Source: a virus (taxonomy: Duplodnaviria > Caudoviricetes). From it: 64,000 bases of DNA. Location of the stretch: the IMG/VR virus record IMGVR_UViG_3300021255_002694; one strand, written 5' to 3'. The position numbers were made by a program, and so were the translations under genes. Shown here in pieces: positions 19,757 through 37,192 of this stretch; position 1 is the stretch's first letter; the number at the start of each line of letters is the position of its first letter. The notes below the pieces were generated by a model. It did not search any database, had not been told where the DNA came from, and saw only the letters and a program-made list of their open reading frames with translations.

Positions 19757-20893
19757 ATGAAAATCACAAAAACACAAGTAAAAGTATCTGATCTTGTAAA
19801 AGATTATCAAGATAAAGATGATCTTGGTGTTACAGGATTTGGTGGAAAACTGCAAATTAGACCTAATTACCAGCGAGAATTTGTATATTCTGATGCTAAA
19901 AGAAATGCTGTTATTGATACAGTAATTAAAGGATTTCCTCTTAATACAATGTACTGGAATGATCGTGGAGATGGTGAATATGAAGTTCTTGACGGTCAGC
20001 AACGTACAATTTCTATTTGCAGATATGTTTCCGGTGATTTCTCTATGAATATCGGCGGAGTCGCACAGTTCTTCCACAATCTTGATGATGAAATTAAGAA
20101 TAAGATTCTTAACTATGAACTTGAAGTATATATTTGTACCGGAACACAAGCCGAACGGCTTGAGTGGTTCAAAGTAATCAATATCGGCGGAGAGACATTG
20201 ACAGATCAAGAACTTCTTAATGCAACATATGCAGGTACATGGCTTAGTGATGCAAAACTGTATTTTTCTAAGCGTGGATGTTCTGCACAGAAAATGTCTG
20301 ATGGTTACTTAAAGGGAAATCCAATTAGACAGGAGATTCTTGAAAAAGCATTAAAGTGGATTTCTGATAGAGATGGATATAAGTCCATTGATATGTATAT
20401 GGCAAAACATCAGCATGATCCTGATGCAAATGATCTCTGGCAGTATTTTCAACAAGTAATCGCATGGGCAAAGATGATTTTCCCGAAAGCACGAAAAGGT
20501 ATTACAGACTGTCAGGAATGGGGAATTCTATACAATAAGTATCATTCTAATTCTTATAATACAAATACTATTGAAACAGATATTCAAAGACTTATTGCAG
20601 ATGATGATGTTACAAAGAAATCTGGAATCGTTCAATATCTTCTTTCTCCTAGAACAGAATTTGATGAAAAGTATCTTTCTATTCGCGCATTTACACAAAC
20701 ACAGAAACTTCGTGCTTATGAAGCGCAAAATCATAAATGCCCAATTTGTATGAGAAGCGGAATTGAGGTTGAATATACCATTGATGAAATGCAAGCAGAT
20801 CACATCATTCCGTGGTCTAAAGGTGGAAGAACTGTTGACGATAACTTGCAAATGCTTTGTAAGAAGTGTAATAGTGAAAAAAGTAATAAATAA
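19757..20893 (+). CDS. DUF262 plus HNH endonuclease (GmrSD-like restriction nuclease)
   Basis: IRPNYQREFVY and LDGQQRT (DUF262); CPIC...ADHIIPWSKGGRT..DNLQMLC..CN (HNH). Confidence 0.9.
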   Translation: MKITKTQVKVSDLVKDYQDKDDLGVTGFGGKLQIRPNYQREFVYSDAKRNAVIDTVIKGFPLNTMYWNDRGDGEYEVLDGQQRTISICRYVSGDFSMNIGGVAQFFHNLDDEIKNKILNYELEVYICTGTQAERLEWFKVINIGGETLTDQELLNATYAGTWLSDAKLYFSKRGCSAQKMSDGYLKGNPIRQEILEKALKWISDRDGYKSIDMYMAKHQHDPDANDLWQYFQQVIAWAKMIFPKARKGITDCQEWGILYNKYHSNSYNTNTIETDIQRLIADDDVTKKSGIVQYLLSPRTEFDEKYLSIRAFTQTQKLRAYEAQNHKCPICMRSGIEVEYTIDEMQADHIIPWSKGGRTVDDNLQMLCKKCNSEKSNK

Positions 20894-20915: not shown

Positions 20916-22466
20916 ATGACATATAATCTAATTGATGAACCTTGGATTAAGGTGAAATACCTTGACGGAACAACTACAGAAGTTGGAATTAGAAAATGTT
21001 TTGAAGATGCTGAAATCATTGATGATATTCTTGCTCCTAGTTTTCGCAGAGATACAATGCATATTTATTATATTCCAACACTAAGACTTCTAACAACTAT
21101 TGTTATGGCTGCGTATTTCAAGCCGGAACAGGACTTCACATCAAGAAATTTCAAGTATTTGCGTAAATTTGAAACCGGAATTTATACAGATGTTATTAAA
21201 GAATATCTTGATAAATTCCATGATCGGTTTGATGTTCTTTCTGTCGATTATCCTTTCTTGCAGAATAAAGACATTCTTGGAAAAGTTGAAGAAAACAAAA
21301 ACTGTGTTACATGGAACCCATTTATTCCGAGTGCGAATAACAAAGTTTTTGGTAAAAACAGATCACAAGATATGCAAGCAAATGATATTCTATCTCAATA
21401 TGAAATGACCGTAAAAGAATATGTATACTATCTTCTTTACACAGCAGTCATGGGTGTATATCCGTCAACGAAAGTTTCAAAGGAGACTGCACTTGAAGCA
21501 AAAGCAATGATTTATATTTCACTGAAAGGTAAAAATCTTTTGCAGACAATTTGTAATAATGTTTTCAAACTTAATAAAAGCAATGATTCAGACAATGATT
21601 ATGACAGACCTATTTGGGAACTTGAAAGAGTTGCAGATGTAGAAACATTGTTTCCTGTTAATTGTGATATACCTAGACAGAACAATAAGCTGATCTGTAG
21701 TTTCTATCCTGGCATCTCAATAATGAACACCGGAGCATCTGGATCAATGATTTCTGGATTTGTTAGAACAGGAACAGAAACGCTTGAAAACACAACAATC
21801 AATCAGGATGAGACAGCGGCTCTAGCTGATCCAAACGTATATTGTTGTGATTCTGCTGTATCAAAATCAGACAAAGACGGTAATAAGTCATATAAGGAAT
21901 TTAGTATTGATTCTGGTTTCGCAAGTTCAATCTGTATCGCGGCAACATCTCACATTGGAGATAACATGGCTTGCAATATCCTGAGTAATAACCGAGATTT
22001 TTCAGATTGTTCAGTAAGAATCTTTTTCAGAATGTTCGATGGCATGAAAGTTAGTCTTTTTCAATGTGGTGAAATTTCTGGAAATAATGCTAAGACATGG
22101 GAAATTTTACAGAATACTGATAAACATAACATAGCAGTTAAGTATAGCGAAACATATTATAAGATTAGAAAATGCTTAACAGGCTGTATTGCTGATATGT
22201 TCTCAGGAAAGAAAGTATCAGACAGTTTTATTAAAAAAGCTGTCAAGAATTTTTCTGATTTCATGGAACATGATTTCTTCAATGATTTCACAGTTGATCT
22301 TATAGAAGATGCAGAGAATGCTATTTATAAATTTGTTGAAAGATCGAGTGATGTTACGAAACAGATAGTCTCTGAAATTGTATGTTTCTCGGATAACATG
22401 ATCGGAAGTGCTAACGCTGTTTCAAAATTTAATAAGAACATGAAAAAATTGATTGAGGGGTGTTAA
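20916..22466 (+). CDS. cas8e: Type I-E Cascade large subunit Cas8e (Cse1/CasA)
   Basis: YNLIDEPWIKV, YL.+F.DRFD....PFLQ, G.NL.QT..N, PIWE motifs; operon position. Confidence 0.88.
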   Translation: MTYNLIDEPWIKVKYLDGTTTEVGIRKCFEDAEIIDDILAPSFRRDTMHIYYIPTLRLLTTIVMAAYFKPEQDFTSRNFKYLRKFETGIYTDVIKEYLDKFHDRFDVLSVDYPFLQNKDILGKVEENKNCVTWNPFIPSANNKVFGKNRSQDMQANDILSQYEMTVKEYVYYLLYTAVMGVYPSTKVSKETALEAKAMIYISLKGKNLLQTICNNVFKLNKSNDSDNDYDRPIWELERVADVETLFPVNCDIPRQNNKLICSFYPGISIMNTGASGSMISGFVRTGTETLENTTINQDETAALADPNVYCCDSAVSKSDKDGNKSYKEFSIDSGFASSICIAATSHIGDNMACNILSNNRDFSDCSVRIFFRMFDGMKVSLFQCGEISGNNAKTWEILQNTDKHNIAVKYSETYYKIRKCLTGCIADMFSGKKVSDSFIKKAVKNFSDFMEHDFFNDFTVDLIEDAENAIYKFVERSSDVTKQIVSEIVCFSDNMIGSANAVSKFNKNMKKLIEGC

Positions 22467-22467
22467 T

Positions 22468-22995
22468 ATGAGTACAAGTTCCGAGTTTGTTAAAAGTCTA
22501 TGGGCTAATCTATATGCTAAGTCTGGAAGCATCTATTGCTTGAAACGCGCATTTGGAAACTCTGTGAGCAGTTCCGATATCAACACATATATGTCTTTTT
22601 TAGATGTGTCAGGTAACACTTTTCCGGATAAACAGAAAGAGGTATACTTCCTTGTAGCAACAATGTTCTACAACTTTGAAAGACCTAATCAGGCAGAGAA
22701 AGATAACAGAACATTTGTGACATTCGAGAGACTTATTTCAAGAATCTACGGTAAGTCTAAATCTACAGACAAGATGATCCGGAATTTCATTGACAGTGAT
22801 TTTGACTCAAACGGTATTTTTGTCAATAGACTTGTAAGGCTGTCTAACAGATGTAAAAAAGAACTTCACAGCGGAGAGCATCTTGATTTCAACTCACTGA
22901 TCAATGATCTTGTTAGATGGAATGACGAATCCAAGTCTGTTAAGTTTAAGTGGGCATCTCAGATTGTGTCAAAATACACAAAAAATGACAAGTAA
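22468..22995 (+). CDS. cas11: Type I-E small subunit Cas11 (Cse2/CasB)
   Basis: LKRAFG, LDF..L..DL..W, V+.+W motifs; between cas8e and cas7. Confidence 0.8.
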   Translation: MSTSSEFVKSLWANLYAKSGSIYCLKRAFGNSVSSSDINTYMSFLDVSGNTFPDKQKEVYFLVATMFYNFERPNQAEKDNRTFVTFERLISRIYGKSKSTDKMIRNFIDSDFDSNGIFVNRLVRLSNRCKKELHSGEHLDFNSLINDLVRWNDESKSVKFKWASQIVSKYTKNDK

Positions 22996-23052
22996 CATTG
23001 TGACACTTTATATTCAAAAACACTTGACAGGATATAATATTTATAGTATACT
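22978..23052 (+). promoter_or_regulatory. Internal phage-type promoter with upstream site, in front of cas7
   Basis: ACAAA-N14-ATTGT (22978-23001); TTGACA(23024)-N17-TATACT(23047)ATATTTAC. Confidence 0.8.
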
Positions 23053-23103
23053 ATATTTACAGCAAAAGGCTGTAAACAGTAATTATTAAAAGGAGTAAAA
23101 ATT

Positions 23104-24321
23104 ATGGGAAAATTCGTAAGTCTGTCTATGTTGAAGAATTATTCTCCATCACTTGTGAACAGAGATGATTCCGGTGATGCAAAACAGGTTGTTGTTGGTG
23201 GAGTAAACCGTGCTAGAATTTCAAGCCAATGCTTGAAGAGGGCTGTGCGAGAGGAAATCGGAAACAGAGGTATTACAACCGCACATCTTGAAGACCTTGT
23301 TGAGCAGATTCTTTCCGATGAGTGTGTAAAAGGAACTATCTCTGAATCTGATATTGAAACTATTGGAAAAGCCGTTTGCTGTGAAGATGTACTCAACTGT
23401 GATTGGTCTAAGAGAGCATCAAAGACTGGTGAGAAGAAAGATGATGACGGAAAAGGCAGAACAGTCAATCAGGTTAATATGGTTGAGATCGGAACTGTAA
23501 TTAGGGTTGCAATCGAAAACAAGGACGCAAATCAGAAGGAACTTGTTAAAGCGATTAGAAATGCTCTTAATGATGTAAGAATTTCTGTAGATAAAGCAAT
23601 GTTTGGAACAATGGCAACATCCGGTTTGATTGAGACTGTTGATGGTGCTGTTCAGGTTGCACAGACATTCAGCATTGATGAGTACATCCCCGAAGATGAT
23701 TTTATCGTAGCAAAATTCTCTGCTGAAAATACAGATGACTTTGATCCGTTTTTCGGTAGTTACAAGAAATTTGAGAATGACAACATGAGAAAAACAGGAA
23801 GTGAAACACTTGCAAGTTCATGTCTGCACTCTAACACAATGCTTACATGCACATCCGTGAATGTTACAGAACTTAAAAGAAATCTATCTAGCAGTATTCA
23901 GCATACAGCGATTGATGTTGAAAATATTGATTCTGATGTTGCAAAAAGTGTATGTGACTATATCGAAACTGTAATCACAGCAGAACCGTCCGCAAAACAG
24001 AATGCCATGTCTGCACACTCTGTTCCGGCAGTTGTATATATTGAAGTTATTGAAGATGGTGCTGTTAAGTATCCGCAAGGTTCTTTTGAAAAGATCGTAA
24101 GGAGAACGGAATCCGATTCTGTATCTGAAATCGGAATTAAGCGAATTTCAGAATTTGCTGCCGATGATACTTTCAGAACAGGTAACATTAAGAAGTATGT
24201 CATGCTTTCTGCACCGTATAAGCGTCTTGAAGATATGTTTACAGATTCCGGAGTTACTGTAATTAAGAATCTAAGTAATCTTAGAGAAATTCTTGGTTCG
24301 GATATTCTTGGCATGATTTAA
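23104..24321 (+). CDS. cas7: Type I-E Cas7 (Cse4/CasC)
   Basis: PS.VNRDDSG..K....GG..RARISSQC.KRA.R, D.AMFG.M, VDGAVQVA, PSAKQN motifs. Confidence 0.93.
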   Translation: MGKFVSLSMLKNYSPSLVNRDDSGDAKQVVVGGVNRARISSQCLKRAVREEIGNRGITTAHLEDLVEQILSDECVKGTISESDIETIGKAVCCEDVLNCDWSKRASKTGEKKDDDGKGRTVNQVNMVEIGTVIRVAIENKDANQKELVKAIRNALNDVRISVDKAMFGTMATSGLIETVDGAVQVAQTFSIDEYIPEDDFIVAKFSAENTDDFDPFFGSYKKFENDNMRKTGSETLASSCLHSNTMLTCTSVNVTELKRNLSSSIQHTAIDVENIDSDVAKSVCDYIETVITAEPSAKQNAMSAHSVPAVVYIEVIEDGAVKYPQGSFEKIVRRTESDSVSEIGIKRISEFAADDTFRTGNIKKYVMLSAPYKRLEDMFTDSGVTVIKNLSNLREILGSDILGMI

Positions 24322-24392
24322 ATGTACCGTGCATGGATTGAAGCTAAATAATTTTGTGTGACATGCATATCGAAATCCACGTATTTCATAGT

Positions 24393-25148
24393 CTTTTTCC
24401 CACGCACATGGGGGTTATCCTATGCAGGTTTCCATGCACCTGATTTTCTTCCACTTTTTCCCACGCACATGGGGGTTATCCTCAAGCAAAAGGTCCTGAT
24501 TACTTTGAAGATATCTTTTTCCCACGCACATGGGGGTTATCCTGCCATCTTACTGGTTTCATAAAATCAAATCCTCTTTTTCCCACGCACATGGGGGTTA
24601 TCCCATCTTTCAATTCCTCCTCTGGAATTAGTTTGACTTTTTCCCACTCACACGGGGGTTATCTCAAAATCAAGATATTCCTGCTGCTGCAATTCGGATT
24701 TTTCCAACTCATACGGGTGGTTATCCTTTTCCAGTGATCGGATCAAAACCATCCTTTAACTTTTTCCTACTTTCGTGGAGTTATCCCTATTACAGGACTT
24801 GCACAATCAATACCTGAACCTTTTTCCACTCGCGTGGTGGTTATCCGCATTCGAGTCTTTCAGTCTGTGTTCCAGTACAGCTTTTCCCACCTGCATGGGG
24901 GTTATCCTTACTAGAAGAATTCCTTTCATAATATGTCTCATTTTCCCACTCGAATTGGGTTATCCAGATATTCCACAGGTATTGGTCCAAATCCAAGTCT
25001 TTTTCTCCACACACATGGGGTTATCCTTGATTTGTCAGAGTTCCTGGTGTACAAGCACACTTTTTCCCATGCAAGTTGGGGGTTATCCTACTCTGCTGTT
25101 TTGATAATTGCATCCGTTGTCCTTTTCCCGTGCAAACGGGGGTTATCC
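24393..25148 (+). CRISPR. CRISPR array 1, type I-E: 13 repeats, 12 spacers of 33 nt; consensus CTTTTTCCCACGCACATGGGGGTTATCC
   Basis: R1-R4 identical 28-mers at 61-nt period (24393, 24454, 24515, 24576); R5-R13 degenerate but keep the TTTT start and GTTATCC-like end. Confidence 0.97.
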
Positions 25149-25170
25149 TTAAAAGAGAGGGGTTTACTTT

Positions 25171-25692
25171 ATGAAATATATTAAGCTAATGTTTAAAGGT
25201 GTATTGCAGCATTACGCACCACCTAAATATGTTGTTATTGCACCATCAAGCACATATTATAGAACAGAGAGATGTCCAACAAAATCATCTATTGTAGGTC
25301 TTATTGGAGCATCTTCCGGATATGATAGAGATGATATTAGACTTATAGAATTAAAAAATAAAATTGACTGTAAGTATTCTATTATTAGAAATGGAACAGT
25401 TATTGTTGATTTTCAAACTGTAAGACCAATCGGTGATGAAAAATTCAGAAAAGTTGATGGTGGACTATCAACTGGTGCAATCATTAAGAAAGTTGAGTAT
25501 CTTCAAAATTATTCTTTTAATGTATATGTTGGTGCAGACGATGGAACTTTGAAACAGATTTACGATGCGCTTAGAAATCCTGTTTACCACCAATATTTTG
25601 GAAAAAGAAGTTGTGTTCCATCAGAACCTATTGTTACAGATTTTAATGTTGTTGATTTGGGGGTGCTTGAAAATGTATATGACTGTCCTTAA
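25171..25692 (+). CDS. cas5: Type I-E Cas5 (CasD), compact
   Basis: R.T..CPTKS.IVGLIGA..G..R, DFQTV, EYL...F, AL.NP....FG+RSC.PS.P. Confidence 0.9.
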   Translation: MKYIKLMFKGVLQHYAPPKYVVIAPSSTYYRTERCPTKSSIVGLIGASSGYDRDDIRLIELKNKIDCKYSIIRNGTVIVDFQTVRPIGDEKFRKVDGGLSTGAIIKKVEYLQNYSFNVYVGADDGTLKQIYDALRNPVYHQYFGKRSCVPSEPIVTDFNVVDLGVLENVYDCP

Positions 25693-26248
25693 AATTGATT
25701 TTGATTCACTTCAAACAAGATCATATCTTATGAAGATTGATGATGGTGATTTCATGCATAGATGGCTTACATCACAGATGGATTGTGAAAGAGTAGATCA
25801 GCATATTCTATACAGGGTTGACAAGTTTACAGACTCAATCTATATTTATATTCAATCTGACTCTGCATTCAATCTTAAAAATGTGCAGAAGTCTGGAATG
25901 AGTGTTGTTAAGCAGTTTGAAATTAACTGTGTCGGAGATAAAATCGCATTTGCTGTAAGATGTTTCCCGACTCACAGAGTAGGAGATAAAAGACTTTACA
26001 TCCTTAATACAGATGATCGCATGAACTATGTTAAAAGAATTTTATCGAGATATATTGATGTTGAGTCACTGACAGAAAATAGGTCTGCAATGTATTCAGT
26101 TAAAGGGAACGTAAAGTTGACATTTTGTGATTTCTCCGGTGTTGGAACTGTGAAGAACATGGGTAATTTTATGAATATTGTTAGGAATGGTATTGGAAAA
26201 TGCAAATGCTATGGCGCTGGAATGCTTCTTTTTAAGGGTGTGAATTGA
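25673..26248 (+). CDS. cas6e: Type I-E Cas6e (Cse3/CasE)
   Basis: MHR, ILYRVD, IQS motifs and C-terminal Gly-rich loop GIGKCKCYGAGML. Confidence 0.88.
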   Translation: MYMTVLKIDFDSLQTRSYLMKIDDGDFMHRWLTSQMDCERVDQHILYRVDKFTDSIYIYIQSDSAFNLKNVQKSGMSVVKQFEINCVGDKIAFAVRCFPTHRVGDKRLYILNTDDRMNYVKRILSRYIDVESLTENRSAMYSVKGNVKLTFCDFSGVGTVKNMGNFMNIVRNGIGKCKCYGAGMLLFKGVN

Positions 26249-28981
26249 GTGAAAAAATCTTGGTGTGTACTTGCATATGTGAATCCAACAAATGAAGTAA
26301 GAGGAAAAACAAGAAGATACCTCTATGAGGTCAAGCCAAATGTGTTTGTCGGTACTGTATCTACTTTAGTCAGAGAAACACTCTGGAATAAGATTAAAGA
26401 AACAAATACACTTGCTTCTATTATCTATTCAGCTAATACTGAACAGGGATTTAAGTCTGAAAGTACATACGGAGATGCAATGTTTTCGGATTTCGATGGA
26501 GTTATTCTTCCGACTTTTGAAAAAAGCATTCTGTCTGTAAAAGACATTTATGCAAAATCTGACGGCAAGAAACTGATTGATCATCTATTTGAAGCCGGAT
26601 ATATTGCACATGCACTTCTTACATATGGTAGAGGAAAGAATGCGATTCAACACATTGCAAAGTTGCTCAATGTAGATGTAGATAAACTAATTGATCTTAC
26701 TTGTTTTCTTATTGGAACGCATGATATCGGTAAAGCACATCCAACTTTTCAATTAAATCTAAATGATTCCAATACGTGCTGTGATGAAATTCATGACACA
26801 GTAATTAAACTCTTTCTCAGTGGATCATTCGATGTTACCGATAGCGGAGAAATGCGACATGAAAGATATTCAAGAGATATTTTATATGACTATTTTAATG
26901 ATCTTGGATTAGATGAATATTCATATGAATACCTTGCAGATATTATTGCATTTCACCATCAAGGCAAACTTGGAGATGCCGAAGAACTGACTGTATGTTA
27001 TGGATCAGAGACAGAAGATCGCTGGAAAGAGTGGAGAAATGTTCAGAGGCAGATGATTGAAAAAGTGCGATCAATCTGGAATATTGACACAGACTTCATC
27101 AAAAGCCTTGAGGATAAAAAATATACAAACGGTCTTTGTTACTTTATTCTTTCTGTAATGGTAACATCTGATTGGATTGTATCTGGAAAACATTTTGTGC
27201 AAACACTCAGTAATTGTAAAGGTGATATTGAAAAAGCCGCAAAAAGTTTTATCTGTACAAATCATTTAGATTGTTCTTCTATCAAGGATTCTTTGAAAAA
27301 TATATCTTGGGGTTCAGTATTTTCATTTGATAAGAATGCACTACAGACTTTTGTAACATCTGAAAAAGTTTCAGTAGATACTGATGAATGTCCGATGTAT
27401 GTTATCGAATATCCATGTGGCTATGGAAAGACCGAAGCCGCTCTTGCACTTGCGTTAAAAATCGGCGCAGATAAGAGTGGAATTTATCTCGCTGCACCTA
27501 CAATGTCTACAGCAAAAGGTCTTGCTAATAGATGCCGAGATATTGCAAAAAATGCCGGAATTGAAATGAACATTCCAGAGTTCGACAGCAGTATGATCTG
27601 GGAAGATAATGAGATGGAGAAAATTCCAAGAGAACTGTGGACGAGTAAGACAAGACATCAAATGCTTTATCCATTTGCTGTAGGAACTATTGACCAAGTT
27701 CTTAAATCTGTGATCAAGTATAGGTACTCATGTATCGGTATGCTCGGACTTTCAGATAAGGTCGTTATTATTGATGAAGTTCATGCCTATGATGCTTATA
27801 TGCTGACAGAACTTAAAACGCTGATTAGGTGGTGTAAGTTTCTAGGAGTTCCGATTATTCTTCTGTCTGCAACACTTCCAACTGAAACAAAACAGCAGTT
27901 GTTCTCTGCATCTGGAATAGCGACAGACATTAAAGAGTACAGCAATGAGTATCCACTTATCACATATGCATATAATGGAAAACTTATTCAGGAGCATATT
28001 GATTGTGTTGGAAAAGATGTGAACATTAAAACAGTTGAATCGAATGATATCATTGTGTCAATGCTGAATTCAGCAATGTCTGTTGAATCTGGATGTATTG
28101 CACTTATTGCACCGACAGTTGATGATGCTTTTGCACTGTATGATATGTTGAATGAAGAAGTGACTGATTGTGATGTTATTCTGTATCATGGAAGAATGTC
28201 AGTTTCGGATAAATCTGATAAGGTAAAAGAATTACTAAGACTTTTTGGAAAAGATAGATCAAATAGACCGAAGAAAGCCATTGTTGTTGCGACATCTATC
28301 ATCGAACAATCTCTTGATGTTGATTTTGACTATATGTTCACTGCGCTTGCTCCTATTGATCTTCTTATTCAAAGACTCGGCAGAGTTCACAGACATTCGG
28401 ATAAGGGAACTATTAGAGAGTTTACAAAAATCGACAGTCCTTTTACAGTAGTTATTCCAAGATCATATGATAATCTTGCAAGAATTTATGATTCGGAAAT
28501 TCTAAATAGAACTAAAACAGAACTATCTAAGATTAAAAAATTGAATACCGTTGATGACGTTCGGAGTATTATTGACAGTGCATATAATGGCTATTCTCCA
28601 CAGAGAGATAATATTTCTAGGATCAGAGCAAATTCTGTAACTTTGAATGATCCTGTAAAAAGAGATGCCATTGAAACATCTCCTGAAAATTATAGATCAT
28701 TCGATCCGGTTCTTCCAATAACAAGAGAAGAAAGATATCCTACAACTGATGTAATCATCATTCGTGAAATCAAAGATGAATATAGTTTTGCAGAAATTCG
28801 TGATATCATGTTGAATAACTGTATTAGCGTTGCTTCATACAAACTTAATCCGTTCCATGAACTTGCAATTACGGATTTTGAATTTTTTAGAGATGCAGAA
28901 ATATATGTCAGCGATAGCATGTTCATCACTTCCGGAGAGCATATTATGACACTTACAGGAGATGGGTTGAGGATTGAATGA
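26249..28981 (+). CDS. cas3: Cas2-Cas3 fusion: I-E-type Cas2 (about aa 1-90), HD nuclease, SF2 helicase
   Basis: N-terminal RG...RYLYEV.PNVFVG.VS..VRE.LW...NTEQGF...DFDG.IL (I-E Cas2); DHL, HDIGK, RHE, HHQG, SDW (HD); PCGYGKT, DEVH, SAT, QRLGRVHR (helicase). Confidence 0.93.
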   Translation: MKKSWCVLAYVNPTNEVRGKTRRYLYEVKPNVFVGTVSTLVRETLWNKIKETNTLASIIYSANTEQGFKSESTYGDAMFSDFDGVILPTFEKSILSVKDIYAKSDGKKLIDHLFEAGYIAHALLTYGRGKNAIQHIAKLLNVDVDKLIDLTCFLIGTHDIGKAHPTFQLNLNDSNTCCDEIHDTVIKLFLSGSFDVTDSGEMRHERYSRDILYDYFNDLGLDEYSYEYLADIIAFHHQGKLGDAEELTVCYGSETEDRWKEWRNVQRQMIEKVRSIWNIDTDFIKSLEDKKYTNGLCYFILSVMVTSDWIVSGKHFVQTLSNCKGDIEKAAKSFICTNHLDCSSIKDSLKNISWGSVFSFDKNALQTFVTSEKVSVDTDECPMYVIEYPCGYGKTEAALALALKIGADKSGIYLAAPTMSTAKGLANRCRDIAKNAGIEMNIPEFDSSMIWEDNEMEKIPRELWTSKTRHQMLYPFAVGTIDQVLKSVIKYRYSCIGMLGLSDKVVIIDEVHAYDAYMLTELKTLIRWCKFLGVPIILLSATLPTETKQQLFSASGIATDIKEYSNEYPLITYAYNGKLIQEHIDCVGKDVNIKTVESNDIIVSMLNSAMSVESGCIALIAPTVDDAFALYDMLNEEVTDCDVILYHGRMSVSDKSDKVKELLRLFGKDRSNRPKKAIVVATSIIEQSLDVDFDYMFTALAPIDLLIQRLGRVHRHSDKGTIREFTKIDSPFTVVIPRSYDNLARIYDSEILNRTKTELSKIKKLNTVDDVRSIIDSAYNGYSPQRDNISRIRANSVTLNDPVKRDAIETSPENYRSFDPVLPITREERYPTTDVIIIREIKDEYSFAEIRDIMLNNCISVASYKLNPFHELAITDFEFFRDAEIYVSDSMFITSGEHIMTLTGDGLRIE

Positions 28982-28983
28982 TG

Positions 28984-29940
28984 CTTTTCCTCACTTCACG
29001 GGGGTTATCCTACTGCCGCAACCTTGACTACAAGTTCAATGCACTTTTCCACACTGCATGTGGGTTATCCTATTAAGTTGCAAGTCAAGGAATTGAATTA
29101 CGTCTTTTTCCAACACACGGTGGTTATCCACCATGAGAACGATCCTGCGATACAGCGGTTGACTTTTCAAACGCACACGATGTGGGGGGGGGTATCCAAA
29201 ATCATGCACTGATCGAGTCAAACGGACATACCTTTTCCAACGCACACATGGGGGTTATCCTGGCTACCCTGTAAAATTACACTACTTTCAAATCTTTTCC
29301 CCATACATAGGGGGTTATCCTCTGCCAGTCGTGTCGTTTTCATACTCGTTTCAGTCTTTTCCATACATATTGGGGTTATCCAAAGTATTTATTGCTGTTG
29401 ACAAAAGAGCAAATCTTTTTCCACTTATATGGTGGTTATCCTGCCGAAGCTGGCAATGCACTAGGAAAAGGTCACTTTTCCCATTACACTGGGGTTATCC
29501 GTTGTCATTGTGATCTCTTGACCAAATCTATACTTTCCCATACACACATGGGTTATCCTGACATTACAGATAAGACAATGATTACTGCAATCTTTTTCTC
29601 ACACATACGAGTGGGGGTTATCCTGAAAGAATGGATATAAATGGGCAGAACGACAGTCCCACCCCCCCCAATACACATTGGGGGAGGGGGCTTATCCATT
29701 GTTTACTGATAGCGCAGTTTGAACTAATGACTTTTCACGTATACATGTGGGAGTTATCCTTCATTACAAAGTTCGTATGAGTTTGACTTAAACTTTTCCA
29801 CACACATAGGGGTGGTTATCCTCGATATTCGGTTTAGATATCAACCGATCAAGCATTTTCCCCATATACACGGGGGTTATCCGGAGATTGCCGATATTTA
29901 CATTGAAGCAACAAACTTTTCCCAATCACACAGGGGTTAT
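28984..29940 (+). CRISPR. CRISPR array 2: 16 repeats, all different, with 15 spacers of about 33 nt
   Basis: About 60-nt periodic CTTTTC...GGTTATCC units starting 2 nt after the cas3 stop; repeat lengths about 25-41 nt. Confidence 0.93.
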
Positions 29941-29976
29941 AATTATTACAATTTGGTTACAGATGTAAATAGACCA

Positions 29977-30005
29977 TTGACTTTTTATCCGTGCTGTGTT
30001 ATAAT
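29977..30005 (+). promoter_or_regulatory. sigmaA-type promoter for the tandem RNA units and the TROVE/TerD gene
   Basis: TTGACT-N17-TATAAT with TG extension, about 10 nt before the first RNA unit. Confidence 0.75.
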
Positions 30006-30014
30006 ATGATCATA

Positions 30015-30110
30015 GGTTAAGCGTGTAAATGTTCATTATATGCAACATACTTTTCTTTATAGTGAATAAAAGTCATGAACATTTACTATGTGTTGCAAAA
30101 TAGCTTGACC
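30015..30110 (+). ncRNA. Structured RNA unit 1 (predicted pseudoknot)
   Basis: GGTTAAGC/GCTTGACC, GTAAATGTTCAT/ATGAACATTTAC, crossing TGCAAC/GTTGCA. Confidence 0.7.
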
Positions 30111-30119
30111 GTTTCTTTG

Positions 30120-30221
30120 TTGATAAGCGTTACTGGTACTTTATGTGACATACTTTTAATAGTCTTTTTTGGAAGAGATAACAGTCTGTATCAGTATATT
30201 CGTCACAAAGTAGCTTATCAA
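30120..30221 (+). ncRNA. Structured RNA unit 2 (same topology as unit 1)
   Basis: TTGATAAGC/GCTTATCAA, TACTGGTAC/GTATCAGTA, crossing TGTGAC/GTCACA; shares AAGCGT, ACATACTTTT and TAGCTT with unit 1. Confidence 0.7.
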
Positions 30222-30226
30222 TACAC

Positions 30227-30257
30227 AGAGCGGTTTGACAGATCATCAAGCCGCTCT
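30227..30257 (+). terminator. Strong hairpin between the RNA units and the downstream gene (terminator or processing stem)
   Basis: AGAGCGGTTTGA...TCAAGCCGCTCT followed by AT-rich tract. Confidence 0.5.
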
Positions 30258-30283
30258 ATATTTATGTTTGGAGGTATTAAAAA

Positions 30284-32329
30284 ATGAAAATATCGTTGAA
30301 CAATTTGCTTTTATCAGAACTCCGTGCATTTCCTGTAACCATGATTCCAGATAATGACGTTACAGATTCAACTCTAACAGCCGCGATTACTGCAAATGAA
30401 GAATTACTTAATCTAGGCTATACTTTATCAGCAGAAGATGTTGTTAATCTTGCAAAGTGTGGTGAACTGTATTCATTTGTAGAGATGTTCAAAGATGCTC
30501 TCTCGGATGTAAAAGCAAAACCAATGTATCCAAATTTCCCGAATCAAGTTATGGATATGGATGAAGCAACATTCAGATTTCATCAGATGATGCATTATTT
30601 TTCAACATATGGTGCAGAACTGTTTTTCGGTCTAAATGTATCTAAAGGATGGCTACCGAATGTAGAAGATACTCCTAAGATCAATGATGATAATACTTTG
30701 CTAAAAGCAAAGGTAATTACTCTTATTGATTCATATGACATTCCAGAATACGTTTATTCAAGAATTATGTCTAAATGCGAGAGATTGACAGATAAGGATC
30801 AGATGCTCCTTGACTATGTTCTTCCGAACATTGATGCAAGCACTATAAAGAGTGTTCAAATTCCGTTTAAGGAAAATATCATGCCTGTATTTTACAGTAT
30901 TGTCAATTCAACTGCAATTTCGCAAGAAGATAAACTTTGTTTTCTTAACTGTATTTGCAAGCATACCGGAGATGTTTTCAAGTGCATTGATTACACTCTT
31001 ACAAGATGCAAGTATCATTTCAAGACTTCTCAAAAAAGACTTTTCACAAAGTTGCTTGAAACATACAGTAACAGTGACTTTGAGGAAAATATAATTATCT
31101 CAGACAAGCGATCAAACAGAACAGAACTCTTGCTTAGATATATTGACTTTAACACATATTCACGTATTCCTGTATTCAAAACTATTGTCAATGAACTTCG
31201 ATCTGGTGAACTGCACTCTTGGATGTCTAAGGTCGAAGCAAAGTTGAAAACAAGAGATGTTGATGCTCTTAAGATGCTATCGAAAAGACCTGGCATCATG
31301 CTTAGAATGTTGACAAGACTTTTAAGACTCGGTTACAATCCTACAGATATTCTTGTATATCTGTATCCACATGCACCAGAACTTAGAACGCAGACACTTG
31401 TATCTATTCTAAACGCATTCAATGCTAAATTGGATGATCTTGAAAATAGTGATCAAAGTGAACTTAGTAGAGCAACAAGATCAGAGGTACAAAATGTGAT
31501 TACAATTTGTGCTGGATTACTTAGAGATAATCTTCACTCCAAAGATTCTCCGTTCAAAGGCAAAAGAGTTTATATTGATCACGGAGAGTACAATTTTGCA
31601 CGATCTATCATTGAAACAAACGGCAAATCTGATGAGGGCGGATATGTAAGATCAGGACTTTCATATAATATTCCAGATAATGTCAGTAGACTTAGATTCT
31701 TTGTTTACTGGAATCACAAGTATCGTGCAGATGTTGATTTGCACTCAAGACTTGTAGACTTCTGTGGCTGCACACAGGATATTGGATGGAATGCTAGTTT
31801 TAAAGAACCTGTTGCTGTATTTAGTGGAGACATTACACATTCAGATGCCGCAGAATATATTGACATTGATCTCGATGCAGCTAGAAATAACAATATCGAG
31901 TATGCAACAACATCAATTAAACTATATTCATCTGAGGATATAACAAACGGTCTTGGTGATCTTGATGAGTGTTATGTTGGATGCATGGCTGTTTCATCGC
32001 TTAATGAACATGTAAAACTGTATAATCCTAAAAATTGTTTCTTCTCACATAGTCTAATAACTAAGTCTAAGATACTTGGATACGGCTTTATCGACATTAA
32101 GAATAGATGCATTACAGTTTCAGCAAAGCCCAGTGTTGATGTATACCAATCTTCCATGCACATTCAGAAAAATCTATTCTCACTTAATACATATGTTAAT
32201 ATTCTTCTTTCATCACAAGATTGCGATATTGTAACAAGTAGAGAAGATGCTGATTTTGTTATTGTACTTGATAAGCCTATGAATGATATTGAGATCAGCT
32301 TGATTGACAATAATTTCTTTATGGATTGA
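30284..32329 (+). CDS. ROT/TROVE-like repeat plus C-terminal TerD-like protein (MXAN_6230/SCO0854-related, no RING seen)
   Basis: PMYPNFP.QV, IPFKEN, L..RPG..LR.L.RLLR, RFFVYW, DVDLHS, FSGDIT...AAEYIDIDL motifs. Confidence 0.7.
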   Translation: MKISLNNLLLSELRAFPVTMIPDNDVTDSTLTAAITANEELLNLGYTLSAEDVVNLAKCGELYSFVEMFKDALSDVKAKPMYPNFPNQVMDMDEATFRFHQMMHYFSTYGAELFFGLNVSKGWLPNVEDTPKINDDNTLLKAKVITLIDSYDIPEYVYSRIMSKCERLTDKDQMLLDYVLPNIDASTIKSVQIPFKENIMPVFYSIVNSTAISQEDKLCFLNCICKHTGDVFKCIDYTLTRCKYHFKTSQKRLFTKLLETYSNSDFEENIIISDKRSNRTELLLRYIDFNTYSRIPVFKTIVNELRSGELHSWMSKVEAKLKTRDVDALKMLSKRPGIMLRMLTRLLRLGYNPTDILVYLYPHAPELRTQTLVSILNAFNAKLDDLENSDQSELSRATRSEVQNVITICAGLLRDNLHSKDSPFKGKRVYIDHGEYNFARSIIETNGKSDEGGYVRSGLSYNIPDNVSRLRFFVYWNHKYRADVDLHSRLVDFCGCTQDIGWNASFKEPVAVFSGDITHSDAAEYIDIDLDAARNNNIEYATTSIKLYSSEDITNGLGDLDECYVGCMAVSSLNEHVKLYNPKNCFFSHSLITKSKILGYGFIDIKNRCITVSAKPSVDVYQSSMHIQKNLFSLNTYVNILLSSQDCDIVTSREDADFVIVLDKPMNDIEISLIDNNFFMD

Positions 32330-34753: not shown

Positions 34754-37192
34754 ATGTATCAAGTAAAAAAGAGAAACGACGATCTTGAAATGTTTGAGTT
34801 ATCAAAAATTAAATCAGCGATAACACGAACATTTGAAGCATGTGGTAGAAATTACCAAGACTCAATAGTAGAAACACTTGCAATAAAATCAGTTGCAAAT
34901 GCAGAAAAGAAAATAAAAGATGATGTTCTTAGTGTAGAGGATATTCAAGATTCAGTAGAATCAATACTGATGGGCTATGGATATGAAGATGTATCTAAAG
35001 CATATATACTATATAGAAAACAACATGAAAAAGCAAGGAATGCTAAAAACTCAGTGCTTGATTATAAGAAAACTATGGACGGTTACTTAAAGGCAAGCGA
35101 TTGGAGAGTAAAGGAAAACTCTACAGTTACATATTCTTTAGGTGGTTTAATACTTGGAAATTCTGGTGCAATGACTGCAAATTACTGGCTATCTGAAATT
35201 TATGATGATGAAATTGCAAATGCGCATAGAAATTGTGATTTTCATATTCATGATCTATCAATGTTAAGCGCCTATTGCGGCGGATGGTCATTAAAGCAAC
35301 TTATACAAGAGGGACTTGGTGGTGTTCCAGGAAAGATAACATCCGGACCAGCAAAACATCTTTCAACACTTTGTAACCAGATTGTCAATTTCCTCGGCGT
35401 TATGCAGAATGAATGGGCTGGCGCACAAGCATTTTCAAGTGTAGATACATATTTAGCTGCGTTTGTAAAAGCAGAAAACCTTTCATACATAGAAGTAAAG
35501 CAATGTATTCAGTCCCTTGTATTCGGTTTGAATATTCCGTCAAGATGGGGCAGTCAGGCACCCTTCACTAACTTCACATTTGACTGGACTGTTCCGGATG
35601 ATCTTGCAGAATTGAATTGCATTGTAGGTGGTAAGGAAGTTGACTTCAAGTACAAAGACTGTAAGCGCGAAATGGACATGATAAATAGAGCATTCATGGA
35701 AGTTATGTTAGAGGGTGATGATAACGGTAGAGGGCACCAGTATCCAATACCTACTTACTCAATAACAAAAGATTTTGATTGGGATGAAGAAGTTAAAAAC
35801 AATCAACTTCTATTTGAAATGACAGCAAAGTATGGAATTCCTTATTTCAGCAATTATGTAAATAGTGATATGAAGCCTAGTGATATCAGAAGCATGTGCT
35901 GTCGATTGCGCTTGGATTTGCGTGAACTTCGTAGAAAAAATGGTGGTTATTTCGGTAGTGGAGAATCAACTGGATCAATCGGAGTTGTCACGATAAATCT
36001 TCCAAGATTGGCATATAAGTCAAAGTCAGAAGATGAGTTCTATAAAAATCTTGATAGATTGATGGACATTGCTGCAAGAAGTCTACATATCAAAAGAGCC
36101 GTTGTATCTCAATATCTTGAACAAGGTCTTTATCCATATACAAAGAGATATTTAGGTAATTTTGATAATCACTTTTCTACCATTGCAACAAACGGCATGA
36201 ATGAGATGTGTCTCAATGCATGTTGGATAAGAGATAACATAGCATCTGAAAAAGGATATGAATTTTCAAAGAACGTATTAGATCACATGAGAGAAAAACT
36301 ATCTGATTATCAGGAGATGTATGTTGGTGAGTTATTCAATCTTGAATCGGCACCAGCAGAATCAACTTCACTCCGTTTTGCTATGCATGATAAAAAAGAT
36401 TTTCCTGACATTATCACAGCAGGAGATAAAACTGATGGTTCTCCTTATTACACTAATAGTTCACATCTTCCTGTTGGATATACAGATGATATATTTGAAG
36501 CACTTGATCATCAAGATGATTTGCAGACTAAATATACATCTGGAACTGTTTTCCATGCTTTCTTGGGAGAGAAACTACCTAATTGGCAATCTGCAATGAT
36601 GCTTACTAGAAAAATTGCTGAGAATTATAAACTCCCTTATTTTACATTCTCCCCGACATATTCTATTTGTCCGGAACATGGATATATTAAAGGTGAAGAA
36701 TGGACATGTCCTCATTGTGGTAAACCTACAGAAGTTTATTCTCGTGTTACTGGATACTATCGTGCTGTTCAAAACTTTAATGATGGTAAGGCTCATGAAT
36801 TTAGGGATCGTAAAGAATATAAGTTTGATTCTAATACTCTTAATACTCCTACTGAGAGTGAGTGTGAATCATGTAAAACAGATTTCACAGAACTTCCAAC
36901 TACTGATTTTGAAAAAGAATCAAGTGTTGGTGACGCAGTAAGATCAATTCTTGCCGATACAAGAAAACCAATGCTTTTCACTACAGCAACATGTCCGAAT
37001 TGCAAAATGGCTAAGAAGTTTATTGCTGATGCTAAATTTGATTGTGATATTCTTCTCGCAGAGGAAAATCAAGAACTTGTGAAACTGTATGAAATTACAT
37101 CTGCGCCGACATTGATTGTATTTGATAATGGTAGTCCGGTTAAGATTCAGAATGTGTCTAATATTAGAAAGTTCTTAGATGAGTTGAAATGA
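34754..37192 (+). CDS. nrdD: Class III anaerobic ribonucleoside-triphosphate reductase with ATP cone and C-terminal glutaredoxin-like domain
   Basis: VKKR ATP cone, HIHDL, AYC.GW, SMCCRL, YSRVTGYYR glycyl-radical loop, CPEH/CPHC Zn site, C-terminal TCPNCK...APTL. Confidence 0.95.
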   Translation: MYQVKKRNDDLEMFELSKIKSAITRTFEACGRNYQDSIVETLAIKSVANAEKKIKDDVLSVEDIQDSVESILMGYGYEDVSKAYILYRKQHEKARNAKNSVLDYKKTMDGYLKASDWRVKENSTVTYSLGGLILGNSGAMTANYWLSEIYDDEIANAHRNCDFHIHDLSMLSAYCGGWSLKQLIQEGLGGVPGKITSGPAKHLSTLCNQIVNFLGVMQNEWAGAQAFSSVDTYLAAFVKAENLSYIEVKQCIQSLVFGLNIPSRWGSQAPFTNFTFDWTVPDDLAELNCIVGGKEVDFKYKDCKREMDMINRAFMEVMLEGDDNGRGHQYPIPTYSITKDFDWDEEVKNNQLLFEMTAKYGIPYFSNYVNSDMKPSDIRSMCCRLRLDLRELRRKNGGYFGSGESTGSIGVVTINLPRLAYKSKSEDEFYKNLDRLMDIAARSLHIKRAVVSQYLEQGLYPYTKRYLGNFDNHFSTIATNGMNEMCLNACWIRDNIASEKGYEFSKNVLDHMREKLSDYQEMYVGELFNLESAPAESTSLRFAMHDKKDFPDIITAGDKTDGSPYYTNSSHLPVGYTDDIFEALDHQDDLQTKYTSGTVFHAFLGEKLPNWQSAMMLTRKIAENYKLPYFTFSPTYSICPEHGYIKGEEWTCPHCGKPTEVYSRVTGYYRAVQNFNDGKAHEFRDRKEYKFDSNTLNTPTESECESCKTDFTELPTTDFEKESSVGDAVRSILADTRKPMLFTTATCPNCKMAKKFIADAKFDCDILLAEENQELVKLYEITSAPTLIVFDNGSPVKIQNVSNIRKFLDELK

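What the first reader, a model, noticed from the sequence alone, without database searches (positions are those of the whole stretch)
20916..29940. Probable phage-borne type I-E CRISPR-Cas with a Cas2-Cas3 fusion and no cas1
Seen: a complete I-E Cascade gene set plus a 910-aa protein whose first ~90 aa are I-E (CT1978-type) Cas2 joined in frame to a Cas3 with intact HD and helicase motifs. cas3 is last in the locus and no cas1 is in the window. Known: Cas2-Cas3 fusion is the hallmark of type I-F, whereas I-E Cas2 is normally separate or fused to DnaQ; many phage CRISPR systems lack nuclease or adaptation genes. Inference: an independent fusion producing an interference-competent I-E variant that may recruit host Cas1 through its Cas2 domain for primed adaptation.
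Basis: partly seen in the sequence, partly recalled or inferred. Interest (0 to 1): 0.88.

Follow-up and report, generated by a model that had tools for sequence, protein, structure and literature searches.

The report
Phage I-E CRISPR, fused Cas2-Cas3, cas1 deleted
A probable giant phage from an animal gut carries a working-looking type I-E CRISPR system whose Cas2 is fused to Cas3, aims it at its own sibling phages, and has recently lost the spacer-capturing gene cas1 by one clean deletion while keeping the Cas2 part.

Summary
The window encodes cse1, cse2, cas7, cas5, cas6e and a 910-aa in-frame Cas2::Cas3, and has no cas1.

The fusion is not an artefact and is not unique. At least 58 protein clusters (36-92% identical) share it, mostly on large phage-like contigs and once in a cultured rumen Lachnospiraceae. 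It is ancestral to that clade and arose independently of type I-F Cas2/3.

Cas1 normally belongs to this variant. Sibling phages 80-86% identical carry cas1 overlapping the cas2-cas3 stop. The window and two siblings share one identical deletion junction that removed cas1 and the leader of array 2.

Spacers match sibling phages (up to 32/32 nt) next to an AAN PAM, so the system serves phage-versus-phage competition.

The Cas2 domain is still under strong purifying selection (dN/dS about 0.1). More reduced relatives have lost both cas1 and the Cas2 domain. Recruitment of a foreign Cas1 is possible but not shown.

The scan noted this same stretch in an overlapping window, not on other DNA. I class it as a new variant of a known kind, of moderate to high interest.

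The parts
20916..22466 (+). cse1/cas8e (516 aa), large Cascade subunit
   Evidence: PF09481, E 4.8e-25, N-terminal half only. TIGR02547 scores 46.6 bits, below its cutoff. Syntenic in siblings.
22453..22995 (+). cse2/cas11e (about 175-180 aa), small subunit
   Evidence: PF09485, 29 bits against a cutoff of 24.6. The sibling genes are 175 aa.
23104..24321 (+). cas7e (405 aa)
   Evidence: PF09344, E 7e-46.
24322..24392 (+). leader of CRISPR array 1
   Evidence: Homologous to the leaders of siblings L003, L014 and L015.
24393..25149 (+). CRISPR array 1, inside the operon: 13 repeats of 29 nt and 12 spacers of about 32 nt. The first four repeats are identical and the rest are degenerate.
   Evidence: RNA-library contig at 24858-25029. 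Spacers at 24605, 24848 and 25090 match sibling phages.
25171..25692 (+). cas5e (173 aa)
   Evidence: TIGR01868, 72.9 bits against 68.95; PF09704.
25673..26248 (+). cas6e (191 aa by comparison with siblings), the repeat-cutting endoribonuclease
   Evidence: PF08798, E 3.6e-17. The sibling gene models are 191 aa and overlap cas5 by 20 nt.
26249..26533 (+). Cas2 domain (aa 1-95) of the Cas2::Cas3 fusion
   Evidence: PF09707, 53.6 bits. Aligns to E. coli Cas2 residues 5-91. dN/dS 0.07-0.15 among cas1-less genomes.
26534..28981 (+). Cas3 part: HD nuclease (aa 107-316), SF2 helicase (aa 384-721) and a C-terminal domain
   Evidence: PF18019, TIGR01587 and PF22590. HD residues H112, H158, D159, H204, H236, H237, D308 and helicase motifs GxGKT 391-395, DEvH 509-512 and QRxGR 708-712 are invariant in 16 diverse relatives. 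Nearest solved structure is I-E Cas3 4q2c, 1e-54.
28978..28984 (+). cas1 deletion junction: the cas3 stop overlaps the remnant ATGATG of the cas1 start, which is joined directly to repeat 1 of array 2
   Evidence: The junction is identical in the window, L003 and L014. Siblings L011 and L008 have a 918-bp cas1 plus a leader of about 20 nt at this place. A contig from another study bridges 28704-29151.
28983..29943 (+). CRISPR array 2: 16 degenerate repeats, 15 spacers, no leader
   Evidence: Several spacers are shared with L003, L014 and L011, with point changes and a shuffled order.
20222..20254 (+). protospacer in the window's GmrSD-HNH gene, hit by a spacer of cas1-plus sibling L011 (32 of 33 aligned bases, PAM AAT)
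28883..28914 (+). protospacer in the 3' end of the window's own cas3, hit by the first array-2 spacer of sibling L014 (29/32)
31118..31149 (+). protospacer in the 681-aa ORF, hit 32/32 by a spacer of cas1-plus sibling L008 (PAM AAC)
36206..36236 (+). protospacer in nrdD related to the first array-2 spacer of L003 (24 of 25 aligned bases here; 31/31 in L012 and L013)

Best explanation
The locus is a phage-borne member of an apparently undescribed type I-E variant. The ancestral layout of that variant is cse1-cse2-cas7-(array)-cas5-cas6e-cas2::cas3-cas1-(array).

In this genome, one precise deletion removed cas1 and the short leader of the downstream array. What remains is an interference-only weapon.

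Mechanism (the steps in this paragraph are inferred; only the presence and intactness of the parts is shown):
- The operon and both arrays are transcribed together.
- Cas6e cuts at the repeat hairpins.
- Cascade, loaded with 61-nt crRNAs, finds protospacers next to a 5'-AAN PAM.
- Cascade recruits the HD-helicase part of Cas2::Cas3, which shreds the DNA.

The targets are closely related phages that co-infect the same host. They include allelic versions of the very genes around the CRISPR locus. The phage's own alleles differ enough to escape.

The arrays change mostly by recombination between siblings. Any new spacers after the cas1 loss would need Cas1 supplied in trans.

The Cas2 domain is not needed for interference, because relatives have deleted it cleanly many times, yet here it is still under selection. 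The most likely reason is that the cas1 deletion is a young allele circulating in a recombining population of cas1-plus siblings, and/or that the domain still contributes to Cas3 assembly or to Cas1-coupled priming.
For: Genes and motifs.

Arrays: 29-nt repeats, a 61-nt period and hairpins placed 5' of a conserved GTTATCC handle.

The fusion is clade-wide and ancestral:
- 58 fused clusters.
- In the tree, the fused forms are basal and monophyletic against canonical I-E Cas3.

Cas1 sits next to cas2-cas3 in L011 (86% identical), L008 and L012 (80-81%), L010, L005, and in the bacterial chromosome of Lachnospiraceae NK4A144.

The deletion junction is identical in the window, L003 and L014 and is seen in another study's contig.

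Targeting of siblings:
- Ten distinct spacers match sibling loci. Examples are 32/32 and 32 of 33 onto the window, and 31/31 from cas1-less L003 onto L012.
- AA occupies PAM positions -3 and -2 in nine of the ten. The tenth (L014) reads GAA and gives AA only after a one-base shift.
- The window's own spacers match its own genome at 24/32 at most.

The Cas2 domain is dispensable for interference. L097 and L098 have Cascade plus Cas3 without a Cas2 domain and without cas1 within 8 kb. The tree needs at least 11 such losses.

Purifying selection: dN/dS of the Cas2 domain is 0.07-0.15 at dS 0.14-0.17 among the three cas1-less genomes, the lowest of any part of the protein.

Recombination: the 3' end of cas3 is mosaic, spacer order is shuffled, and the deletion allele lies in two subclades of the Cas3 tree.

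RNA-library contigs identical to the window lie on array 1, cas5 and cas6e.
Against: - No phage structural gene was identified in the window by me. Forty-eight ORFs were scanned and gave only PHROG families of unknown function plus NrdD, Thg1, a methyltransferase and GmrSD-HNH. 'Phage' is therefore probable, not proven.
- Only 64 kb of a genome of roughly 300 kb could be searched for cas1.
- Transcription is not shown, because RNA libraries can contain DNA.
- No activity was measured.
- The first four repeats of array 1 are identical. This looks like recent canonical acquisition and is not explained by an interference-only reading unless the deletion allele arrived later by recombination.
- The tree is FastTree only, with long branches. 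Some 'unfused' forms could be gene-calling truncations; three loci were checked, and in all three the Cas3 lacks the Cas2 domain.
Confidence: 0.8

Rival explanations
1. Adaptation in trans. The retained Cas2 domain docks Cas1 made by a co-infecting cas1-plus sibling phage, or by a host I-E system. The cas1-less phage then still gains spacers, coupled to its own Cas3 (priming).
For: - The Cas2 domain is the most conserved part of the protein in cas1-less genomes (dN/dS about 0.1). It is 96% identical to that of sibling L011, which has a cognate Cas1.
- Array 1 keeps its leader, and its first four repeats are identical, as after recent acquisitions.
- L003 and L014 each carry a different first spacer in array 2. 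One of them matches a sibling perfectly.
- Co-infection with siblings must be common, since they target one another.
- NK4A144 has nearly the same repeat ends.
- Co-fold of NK4A144 Cas1 (2 copies) with the window's Cas2 domain (2 copies) gave weak support. The score was 0.34 and the best of 3 controls was 0.00. In calibration the mark was reached by 58 of 80 solved complexes and 2 of 110 mismatched pairs. At 0.60 or under it was reached by only 7 of those 80 and by both mismatches. The runs agree in at least 80% of contacts and the partner's pLDDT is at least 69. A similar complex is solved, so the pass may come from memory.
Against: - A sibling or host would supply Cas1 together with its own Cas2, so the phage's Cas2 is not needed for plain trans-integration.
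- Array 2 lost its leader in the deletion.
- Spacer order differs between siblings, so recombination can explain unique spacers without any acquisition.
- The deletion allele itself seems to move by recombination, so 'acquired after the loss' cannot be inferred.
- The fused variant was found in only 1 of 401 sampled genomes of the Lachnospiraceae NK4A144 family.
- Other lineages lost the Cas2 domain once cas1 was gone.
Confidence: 0.25
2. The Cas2 domain is kept for Cas3 itself, for example for dimerisation, stability or control of the nuclease as in I-F Cas2/3, and has nothing to do with adaptation any more.
For: Strong purifying selection without cas1. The architecture is the same as in I-F Cas2/3, where the Cas2 part organises a higher-order complex (background knowledge; ICP1 work, bioRxiv 10.1101/2024.03.09.584257).
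Against: At least 11 independent clean losses of the domain within the clade, with Cas3 otherwise intact.
Confidence: 0.2
3. A cognate cas1 lies elsewhere in the roughly 300-kb genome, so the system is fully autonomous.
For: Only 64 kb could be searched. In L005, cas1 sits upstream of the array and cse1 rather than after cas3, so its position is not fixed.
Against: - The deletion junction shows that the resident copy was removed.
- None of the 120 Cas1 relatives listed, and none of the cluster members listed for the four closest Cas1 clusters and the 170-aa fragment cluster (5 of the 20 members of the largest were not shown), lies on the 326,405-bp contig of sibling L003.
- Notes on eight windows of this genome mention no cas1 (unchecked notes).
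Confidence: 0.08
4. The fusion or the missing cas1 is an assembly or gene-calling artefact.
For: The window is metagenomic. Repeats invite misassembly.
Against: Fifty-eight fused clusters from many samples. An independent assembly reproduces the stretch with 0 differences. Other-sample contigs bridge both junctions. Three genomes share the junction.
Confidence: 0.02

Closest known systems
Canonical type I-E CRISPR-Cas (E. coli K-12, Thermobifida fusca, Streptococcus thermophilus CRISPR4)
   Same: Cse1, Cse2, Cas7e, Cas5e and Cas6e. A 29-nt hairpin repeat with 32-nt spacers. An AA-type 5' PAM. Cas3 of the I-E lineage (4q2c, 4qqw). Cas2 of the CT1978 type.
   Different: Cas2 is fused to the N-terminus of Cas3. 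cas3 is last rather than first. One array sits inside the operon. cas1 is absent here. The proteins are very divergent, and most score below NCBIfam equivalog cutoffs.
Type I-F Cas2/3 (Pseudomonas aeruginosa, Pectobacterium; phage ICP1)
   Same: The domain order Cas2-HD-helicase in one polypeptide, and a cas1 neighbour in complete loci. ICP1 shows that a phage can carry such a system.
   Different: No specific homology: TIGR02562 scores 37.7 bits against a cutoff of 566, and the PDB I-F hits cover only a helicase motif. The effector is Cse-type, not Csy-type Cascade. ICP1 keeps Cas1 and even needs it for interference (bioRxiv 10.1101/2024.03.09.584257), whereas this phage has lost it.
CRISPR-Cas systems of huge phages without adaptation genes (Al-Shayeb et al. 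2020, PMC7162821; jumbo-phage survey PMC13037316)
   Same: A large phage-like genome, compact arrays, no cas1, and spacers aimed at competing phages.
   Different: Those reports describe I-C variants, type V and others lacking both Cas1 and Cas2. Here an I-E variant keeps a Cas2 domain inside Cas3, and the deletion that removed cas1 can be seen against cas1-plus siblings.
I-E Cas2-DnaQ (Cas2-DEDDh) and Cas3-Cse1 fusions of Actinobacteria
   Same: I-E components fused to other domains. The Cas2 part aligns to Cas2-DEDDh (8fyc, E 6e-6). Streptomyces Cas3-Cse1 fusions appear as distant hits.
   Different: The fusion partners and the clades are different.

Membership tests
Type I-E CRISPR-Cas | Signature large subunit Cse1/Cas8e | tested here: met
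   PF09481, 89 bits against 24.7, but only the first 235 of 516 aa align. TIGR02547 is below its cutoff.
Type I-E CRISPR-Cas | Small subunit Cse2/Cas11e | tested here: met
   PF09485, 29 bits against 24.6. TIGR02548 is below its cutoff.
Type I-E CRISPR-Cas | Cas7e, Cas5e and Cas6e | tested here: met
   PF09344 7e-46; TIGR01868 72.9 bits against 68.95; PF08798 3.6e-17.
Type I-E CRISPR-Cas | 29-nt hairpin repeat, spacers of about 32 nt, 5' AA-type PAM | tested here: met
   61-nt period. Hairpins. AA at -3 and -2 in 9 of 10 distinct protospacers; the tenth fits only after a one-base shift.
Type I-E CRISPR-Cas | Cas3 with HD nuclease and SF2 helicase of the I-E lineage | tested here: met
   NF007248 E 1.6e-70 (238 bits, below its 569-bit cutoff); 4q2c E 1e-54; motifs invariant.
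Type I-E CRISPR-Cas | Separate cas1 and cas2 adaptation genes in the locus | tested here: not met
   No Cas1 in the window. Cas2 exists only as a domain of Cas3.
Type I-F Cas2/3 | Homology to Cas3f (TIGR02562) and a Csy-type effector | tested here: not met
   37.7 bits against 565.95, covering only aa 464-557. The effector genes are Cse-type.
Type I-F Cas2/3 | Cas2 fused N-terminally to Cas3 | tested here: met
   The architecture is the same. This is likeness of design, not membership.
Cas2, I-E type (CT1978) | Match to the family model over the whole domain | tested here: met
   PF09707, 53.6 bits against 24.7, aa 12-87. TIGR01873, 30.6 bits against 33.15, just below. E. coli Cas2 residues 5-91 aligned.
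Cas2, I-E type (CT1978) | Binds a Cas1 dimer | tested here: inconclusive
   Co-fold with NK4A144 Cas1 gave weak support only: 0.34 against a best control of 0.00. In calibration the mark was reached by 58 of 80 solved complexes and 2 of 110 mismatches, and at 0.60 or under by only 7 of those 80 and both mismatches. The runs agree in at least 80% of contacts and the partner's pLDDT is at least 69. A similar complex is solved.
Phage-encoded CRISPR-Cas without adaptation module | Carried by a phage genome | tested here: inconclusive
   Genes on one strand, mostly ORFans with PHROG-only families, NrdD, Thg1. Sibling contigs are 300-326 kb. No capsid or terminase gene was found in the window.
Phage-encoded CRISPR-Cas without adaptation module | Spacers target competing phages | tested here: met

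The most novel reading that the evidence does not exclude
cas1-less phages of this group act as 'adaptation cheaters'. They keep a selected Cas2 domain on Cas3 so that, during the frequent co-infections with cas1-plus siblings (or in hosts with a compatible I-E system), foreign Cas1 is captured onto their own Cas3. Primed spacer uptake is then directed into their own leader-bearing array 1. This would be a natural case of Cas1 sharing between competing viruses.
Probability: 0.2. Interest if true: 0.85.

Novelty: new variant of a known kind. Interest (0 to 1): 0.62.

Why it matters
- It shows that the Cas2-Cas3 fusion, taken as the hallmark of type I-F, arose a second time inside the type I-E lineage and founded a sizeable, mostly phage-borne clade. 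I found no paper describing this.
- The sibling genomes form a natural series in which the adaptation module decays: cas1 intact, cas1 split, cas1 deleted with Cas2 kept, and both gone. That gives a direct handle on what the Cas2 domain does when Cas1 is missing.
- The spacer matches show close relatives of one giant phage shooting at each other's genomes, including each other's cas genes, with allele replacement at the targeted sites. This is a clear, testable example of CRISPR-mediated virus-virus competition.
- The compact operon with internal arrays and an AAN PAM could also be of practical interest as a self-contained I-E effector.

Tried and rejected
- No whole genome is held for the window, and the ENA contigs of siblings cannot be searched whole. 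A genome-wide cas1 search was therefore not possible.
- INPHARED phages gave no near match to 22 kb of the window and no match to either array at E<=0.1. By protein they gave only distant Cas3 hits.
- IMG/VR gave only two distant Cas3 loci. An exact search for one new spacer found nothing.
- JGI metagenome contigs held no exact match to the newest spacer or to the array-1 repeat. The targets of the three youngest spacers remain unknown.
- The IQ-TREE run did not finish, so a FastTree tree was used.
- Rfam found no known intron or RNA in the 291-bp insertion that splits cas1 in L015.
- I considered that the window's array 1 had lost its leader and first repeat. The four-way alignment shows the leader is present but diverged, and that L014 carries two leader copies. 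I rejected the idea.
- I considered using unique first spacers in cas1-less genomes as proof of acquisition after the loss. I rejected it because spacer order is shuffled and the deletion allele is not monophyletic on the Cas3 tree.
- The RNA-library contigs (X20) cover only 9 of 30 bins and cannot prove transcription.
- The sigma-70 promoter scan did not exceed shuffles (50 found against 44.8 expected). I make no promoter claim.
Full report
**What is there**

The window is 34% GC. Nearly all genes lie on the + strand. It is filled with short ORFs of unknown function plus NrdD, a Thg1-like enzyme, an EcoRI-type methyltransferase and a GmrSD-HNH nuclease. Several ORFs match only phage protein families. 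I found no capsid or terminase gene in these 64 kb and no tRNA. Close relatives of the locus lie on contigs of 304-326 kb. I therefore call the element a probable giant phage, not a proven one.

Between 20916 and 28981, profile searches identify Cse1, Cse2, Cas7e, Cas5e and Cas6e, followed by a single 910-aa frame. That frame carries an I-E-type Cas2 domain (aa 12-87), a Cas3 HD domain (aa 107-316) and the Cas3 helicase core (aa 384-721). The DNA across the Cas2/HD join is an uninterrupted frame.

**Two CRISPR arrays that the finding did not list**

The 850 bp between cas7 and cas5 is a CRISPR array (24393-25149) with 13 repeats of 29 nt and spacers of about 32 nt. A second array of 16 repeats starts two bases after the cas3 stop (28983-29943).

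The repeats resemble I-E repeats. Each has a T-rich 5' end, a short C/G hairpin and a conserved GTTATCC 3' end that would form the crRNA 5' handle. They point the same way as the genes.

Only the first four repeats of array 1 are identical. The others differ from one another, mostly in the stem, yet nearly all can still fold a hairpin right before the handle.

**The fusion is real and old**

A search of 5.8 billion proteins returned about 75 clusters that group with this protein. Fifty-eight of them have the same Cas2-HD-helicase architecture, at 36-92% identity.

An independent assembly of the probable source run reproduces 24300-30300 without a single difference. Contigs from a second sample and from a different study bridge the Cas2/HD join and the cas3/array-2 join.

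In a tree of the Cas3 parts, the fused group is monophyletic against ordinary I-E Cas3 and its deepest branches are fused. That tree is FastTree only and has long branches.

The Cas3 part is closest to solved I-E Cas3 proteins (4q2c, 1e-54; T. fusca, 1e-41). The Cas2 part is closest to E. coli I-E Cas2 and Cas2-DEDDh. I-F Cas2/3 proteins match only a helicase motif, and the I-F model scores 37.7 bits against a cutoff of 566.

Among species-representative bacterial genomes, I found the fused form in the cultured rumen isolate Lachnospiraceae bacterium NK4A144 (confirmed as one 902-aa frame). It was absent from the other 400 sampled genomes of that family. A Selenomonas MAG has cas1, cas2 and cas3 adjacent but unfused, which is a plausible precursor arrangement.

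Three literature searches found no description of an I-E Cas2-Cas3 fusion.

**cas1 was there and was deleted**

In syntenic siblings, a 305-aa Cas1 gene overlaps the cas2-cas3 stop codon. This holds for L011 (86% identical Cas2::Cas3), L008 (80%), and L012 and L013 (81%). A more distant relative, L010, has it in the same place. L005 has it upstream, and NK4A144 has it just before cas2-cas3.

The window, L003/L004 (88%, on a 326-kb contig) and L014 (92%) lack it. All three read the same across the break: the cas3 stop, the remnant ATGATG of the cas1 start, then repeat 1 of array 2. Siblings L011 and L008 have 918 bp of cas1 plus a leader of about 20 nt at that place. A contig from an unrelated study shows the same cas1-less join.

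A profile HMM of 30 Cas1 proteins finds nothing in any of the 1032 six-frame ORFs of the window.

For the 326-kb sibling, none of the 120 Cas1 relatives listed lies on that contig, and neither does any listed member of the five clusters I looked up. Those were the four closest Cas1 clusters and the 170-aa fragment cluster. This is indirect evidence and not exhaustive, since 5 members of the largest cluster were not shown.

In L015 and L016 (88%), cas1 is split by a 291-bp AT-rich insertion.

On the Cas3 tree, the deletion-bearing genomes fall in two subclades, each with cas1-bearing sisters. The 3' end of cas3 is also mosaic between siblings. The deletion allele therefore probably spreads by recombination.

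**What the system is used for**

I compared all spacers of the fetched loci with all loci and with the window. Ten distinct spacers match genes of sibling phages outside arrays:
- A spacer of L008 matches the window 32/32 at 31118-31149.
- A spacer of L011 matches 32 of 33 aligned bases at 20222-20254.
- The first array-2 spacer of cas1-less L003 matches nrdD of L012 and L013 at 31/31.
- The first array-2 spacer of L014 matches the 3' end of the window's cas3 at 29/32. L014's own cas3 carries the other allele at that site.
- Window spacers at 24605, 24848, 25090 and 29560 match cas5/cas6, the GmrSD gene, cas5 and the 681-aa ORF of siblings.

Positions -3 and -2 upstream of the protospacers are AA in nine of the ten cases. 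The tenth fits only after a one-base shift. By my own estimate AA should occur about 12% of the time, so this is a PAM of the I-E kind (AAN).

The window's own genome matches its own spacers at no better than 24/32. The two best cases are diverged alleles of the same targeted genes.

The picture is CRISPR warfare among sibling phages. The phenomenon is already described in general terms for huge phages (PMC7162821; PMC13037316).

HD and helicase catalytic motifs are invariant across 16 diverse relatives including the window, so interference competence is supported at the motif level only.

RNA-library contigs identical to the window lie on array 1, cas5 and cas6e. This is suggestive of expression but is not proof.

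**The Cas2 domain without Cas1**

Two facts pull in different directions.

First, the domain is dispensable for interference. Seventeen relatives inside the fused clade lack it, and the tree needs at least 11 losses. In the two loci where flanks could be checked (L097, L098), neither a Cas2 domain nor cas1 is found within 8 kb, while Cascade, Cas3 and arrays remain. In the long run the whole adaptation module decays.

Second, in the window lineage the domain is not decaying. Among the three cas1-less genomes it is 95-98% identical. dN/dS is 0.07-0.15 at dS 0.14-0.17, lower than for the HD, helicase or C-terminal parts. By my own count that is roughly 5 amino-acid changes where about 50 would be expected if the domain were neutral.

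Three explanations remain open:
- Gene flow with cas1-plus siblings keeps the domain under selection.
- The domain has a role for Cas3 itself.
- The domain docks a foreign Cas1 for primed uptake.

In its favour, array 1 keeps a leader and shows three spacers between identical repeats. The co-fold of the domain with NK4A144 Cas1 reached only 'weak support'. The score was 0.34 against a best control of 0.00. In calibration the mark was reached by 58 of 80 solved complexes and 2 of 110 mismatches, but at 0.60 or under by only 7 of those 80 and by both mismatches. The runs agree in at least 80% of contacts and the partner's pLDDT is at least 69. A similar complex is solved, so the pass may come from memory.

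Against it:
- A sibling or host would bring its own Cas2.
- Array 2 lost its leader.
- Spacer order is shuffled between siblings, so recombination can account for unique spacers.
- Compatible bacterial systems look rare.

**Verdict**

- The fusion is real, of the I-E type and independent of I-F, but it is clade-wide and normally paired with its own cas1.
- The absence of cas1 is a young, shared deletion.
- The system most likely works as an interference-only weapon against sibling phages.
- Recruitment of foreign Cas1 is a minority possibility.

I class it as a new variant of a known kind. It deserves a short study because of the second origin of Cas2-Cas3 and the natural decay series.

The scan had noted this same stretch in an overlapping window (e1-5482144), not on other DNA.

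Noticed in passing
window 63420-63442 (context 63389-63480): A solitary copy of the CRISPR repeat (T-rich start, short hairpin, GGTTATCC end) lies 33 kb from the cas locus, inside a tRNA-like sequence with a T-arm and CCA-like end. The pattern is expected 0.01 times by chance in the window. ARAGORN calls no tRNA there.
   Followed up: partly
L015:12730-13959 (and L016): In an 88% sibling, cas1 is split into 158-aa and 170-aa ORFs by a 291-bp AT-rich insertion that folds strongly (-70.5 kcal/mol) and has no Rfam match. Arrays in that genome nevertheless have runs of identical repeats, so the gene may still work (an intron?) or was broken recently.
   Followed up: partly
P0149, P0152: Proteins of about 400 aa that combine an I-E Cas2 domain with Cas1 (PF09707 plus PF01867), about 53% identical to the sibling Cas1. 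This is a Cas2-Cas1 fusion in the same wider group.
   Followed up: no
L018 / G002:C9:7091-9231: A Selenomonas ruminantium MAG has cas1, a separate 105-aa cas2 frame and cas3 in a row. This is the likely unfused precursor arrangement of the fusion.
   Followed up: partly
window 28880-28950; L014:8262-8330; L008:3580-3650: The last 100 bp or so of cas3 exists in two very different allele types among siblings. L014 carries one type and has a spacer against the other. This looks like escape by allele replacement at a targeted site.
   Followed up: partly
L014:4118-4290: Array 1 of L014 has two leader copies: its own leader plus a degenerate repeat, then a 30-nt stretch identical to the window's leader, then the array. 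This is evidence of array recombination between siblings.
   Followed up: partly
window 24393-25149: Because array 1 sits between cas7 and cas5, Cas6e processing would cut a polycistronic transcript into a cse1-cse2-cas7 part and a cas5-cas6e-cas2::cas3 part. This is a possible built-in feedback on cas expression. The bacterial relative NK4A144 also has an internal array, between cas6e and cas1.
   Followed up: no
window 29170-29197 and 29657-29697: Two repeats of array 2 carry long G or C runs that lengthen both stem arms.
   Followed up: no
window 34754-37192; L003:17881-21262; L015:16338-21754: nrdD is intact in the window (812 aa with a glutaredoxin-like tail). In siblings it is interrupted by HNH_3 homing-endonuclease genes, so mobile introns or inteins are active in this phage group.
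   Followed up: no
window 17651-19717: The EcoRI-type adenine methyltransferase is 688 aa here, against 349-358 aa in siblings, with an extra N-terminal P-loop-like part. It and the GmrSD-HNH gene directly precede the cas operon.
   Followed up: no
window 30284-32329: The 681-aa ORF after array 2 is present in some siblings (L003, L011) and absent in others (L008, L012). It is a repeated target of sibling spacers.
   Followed up: no
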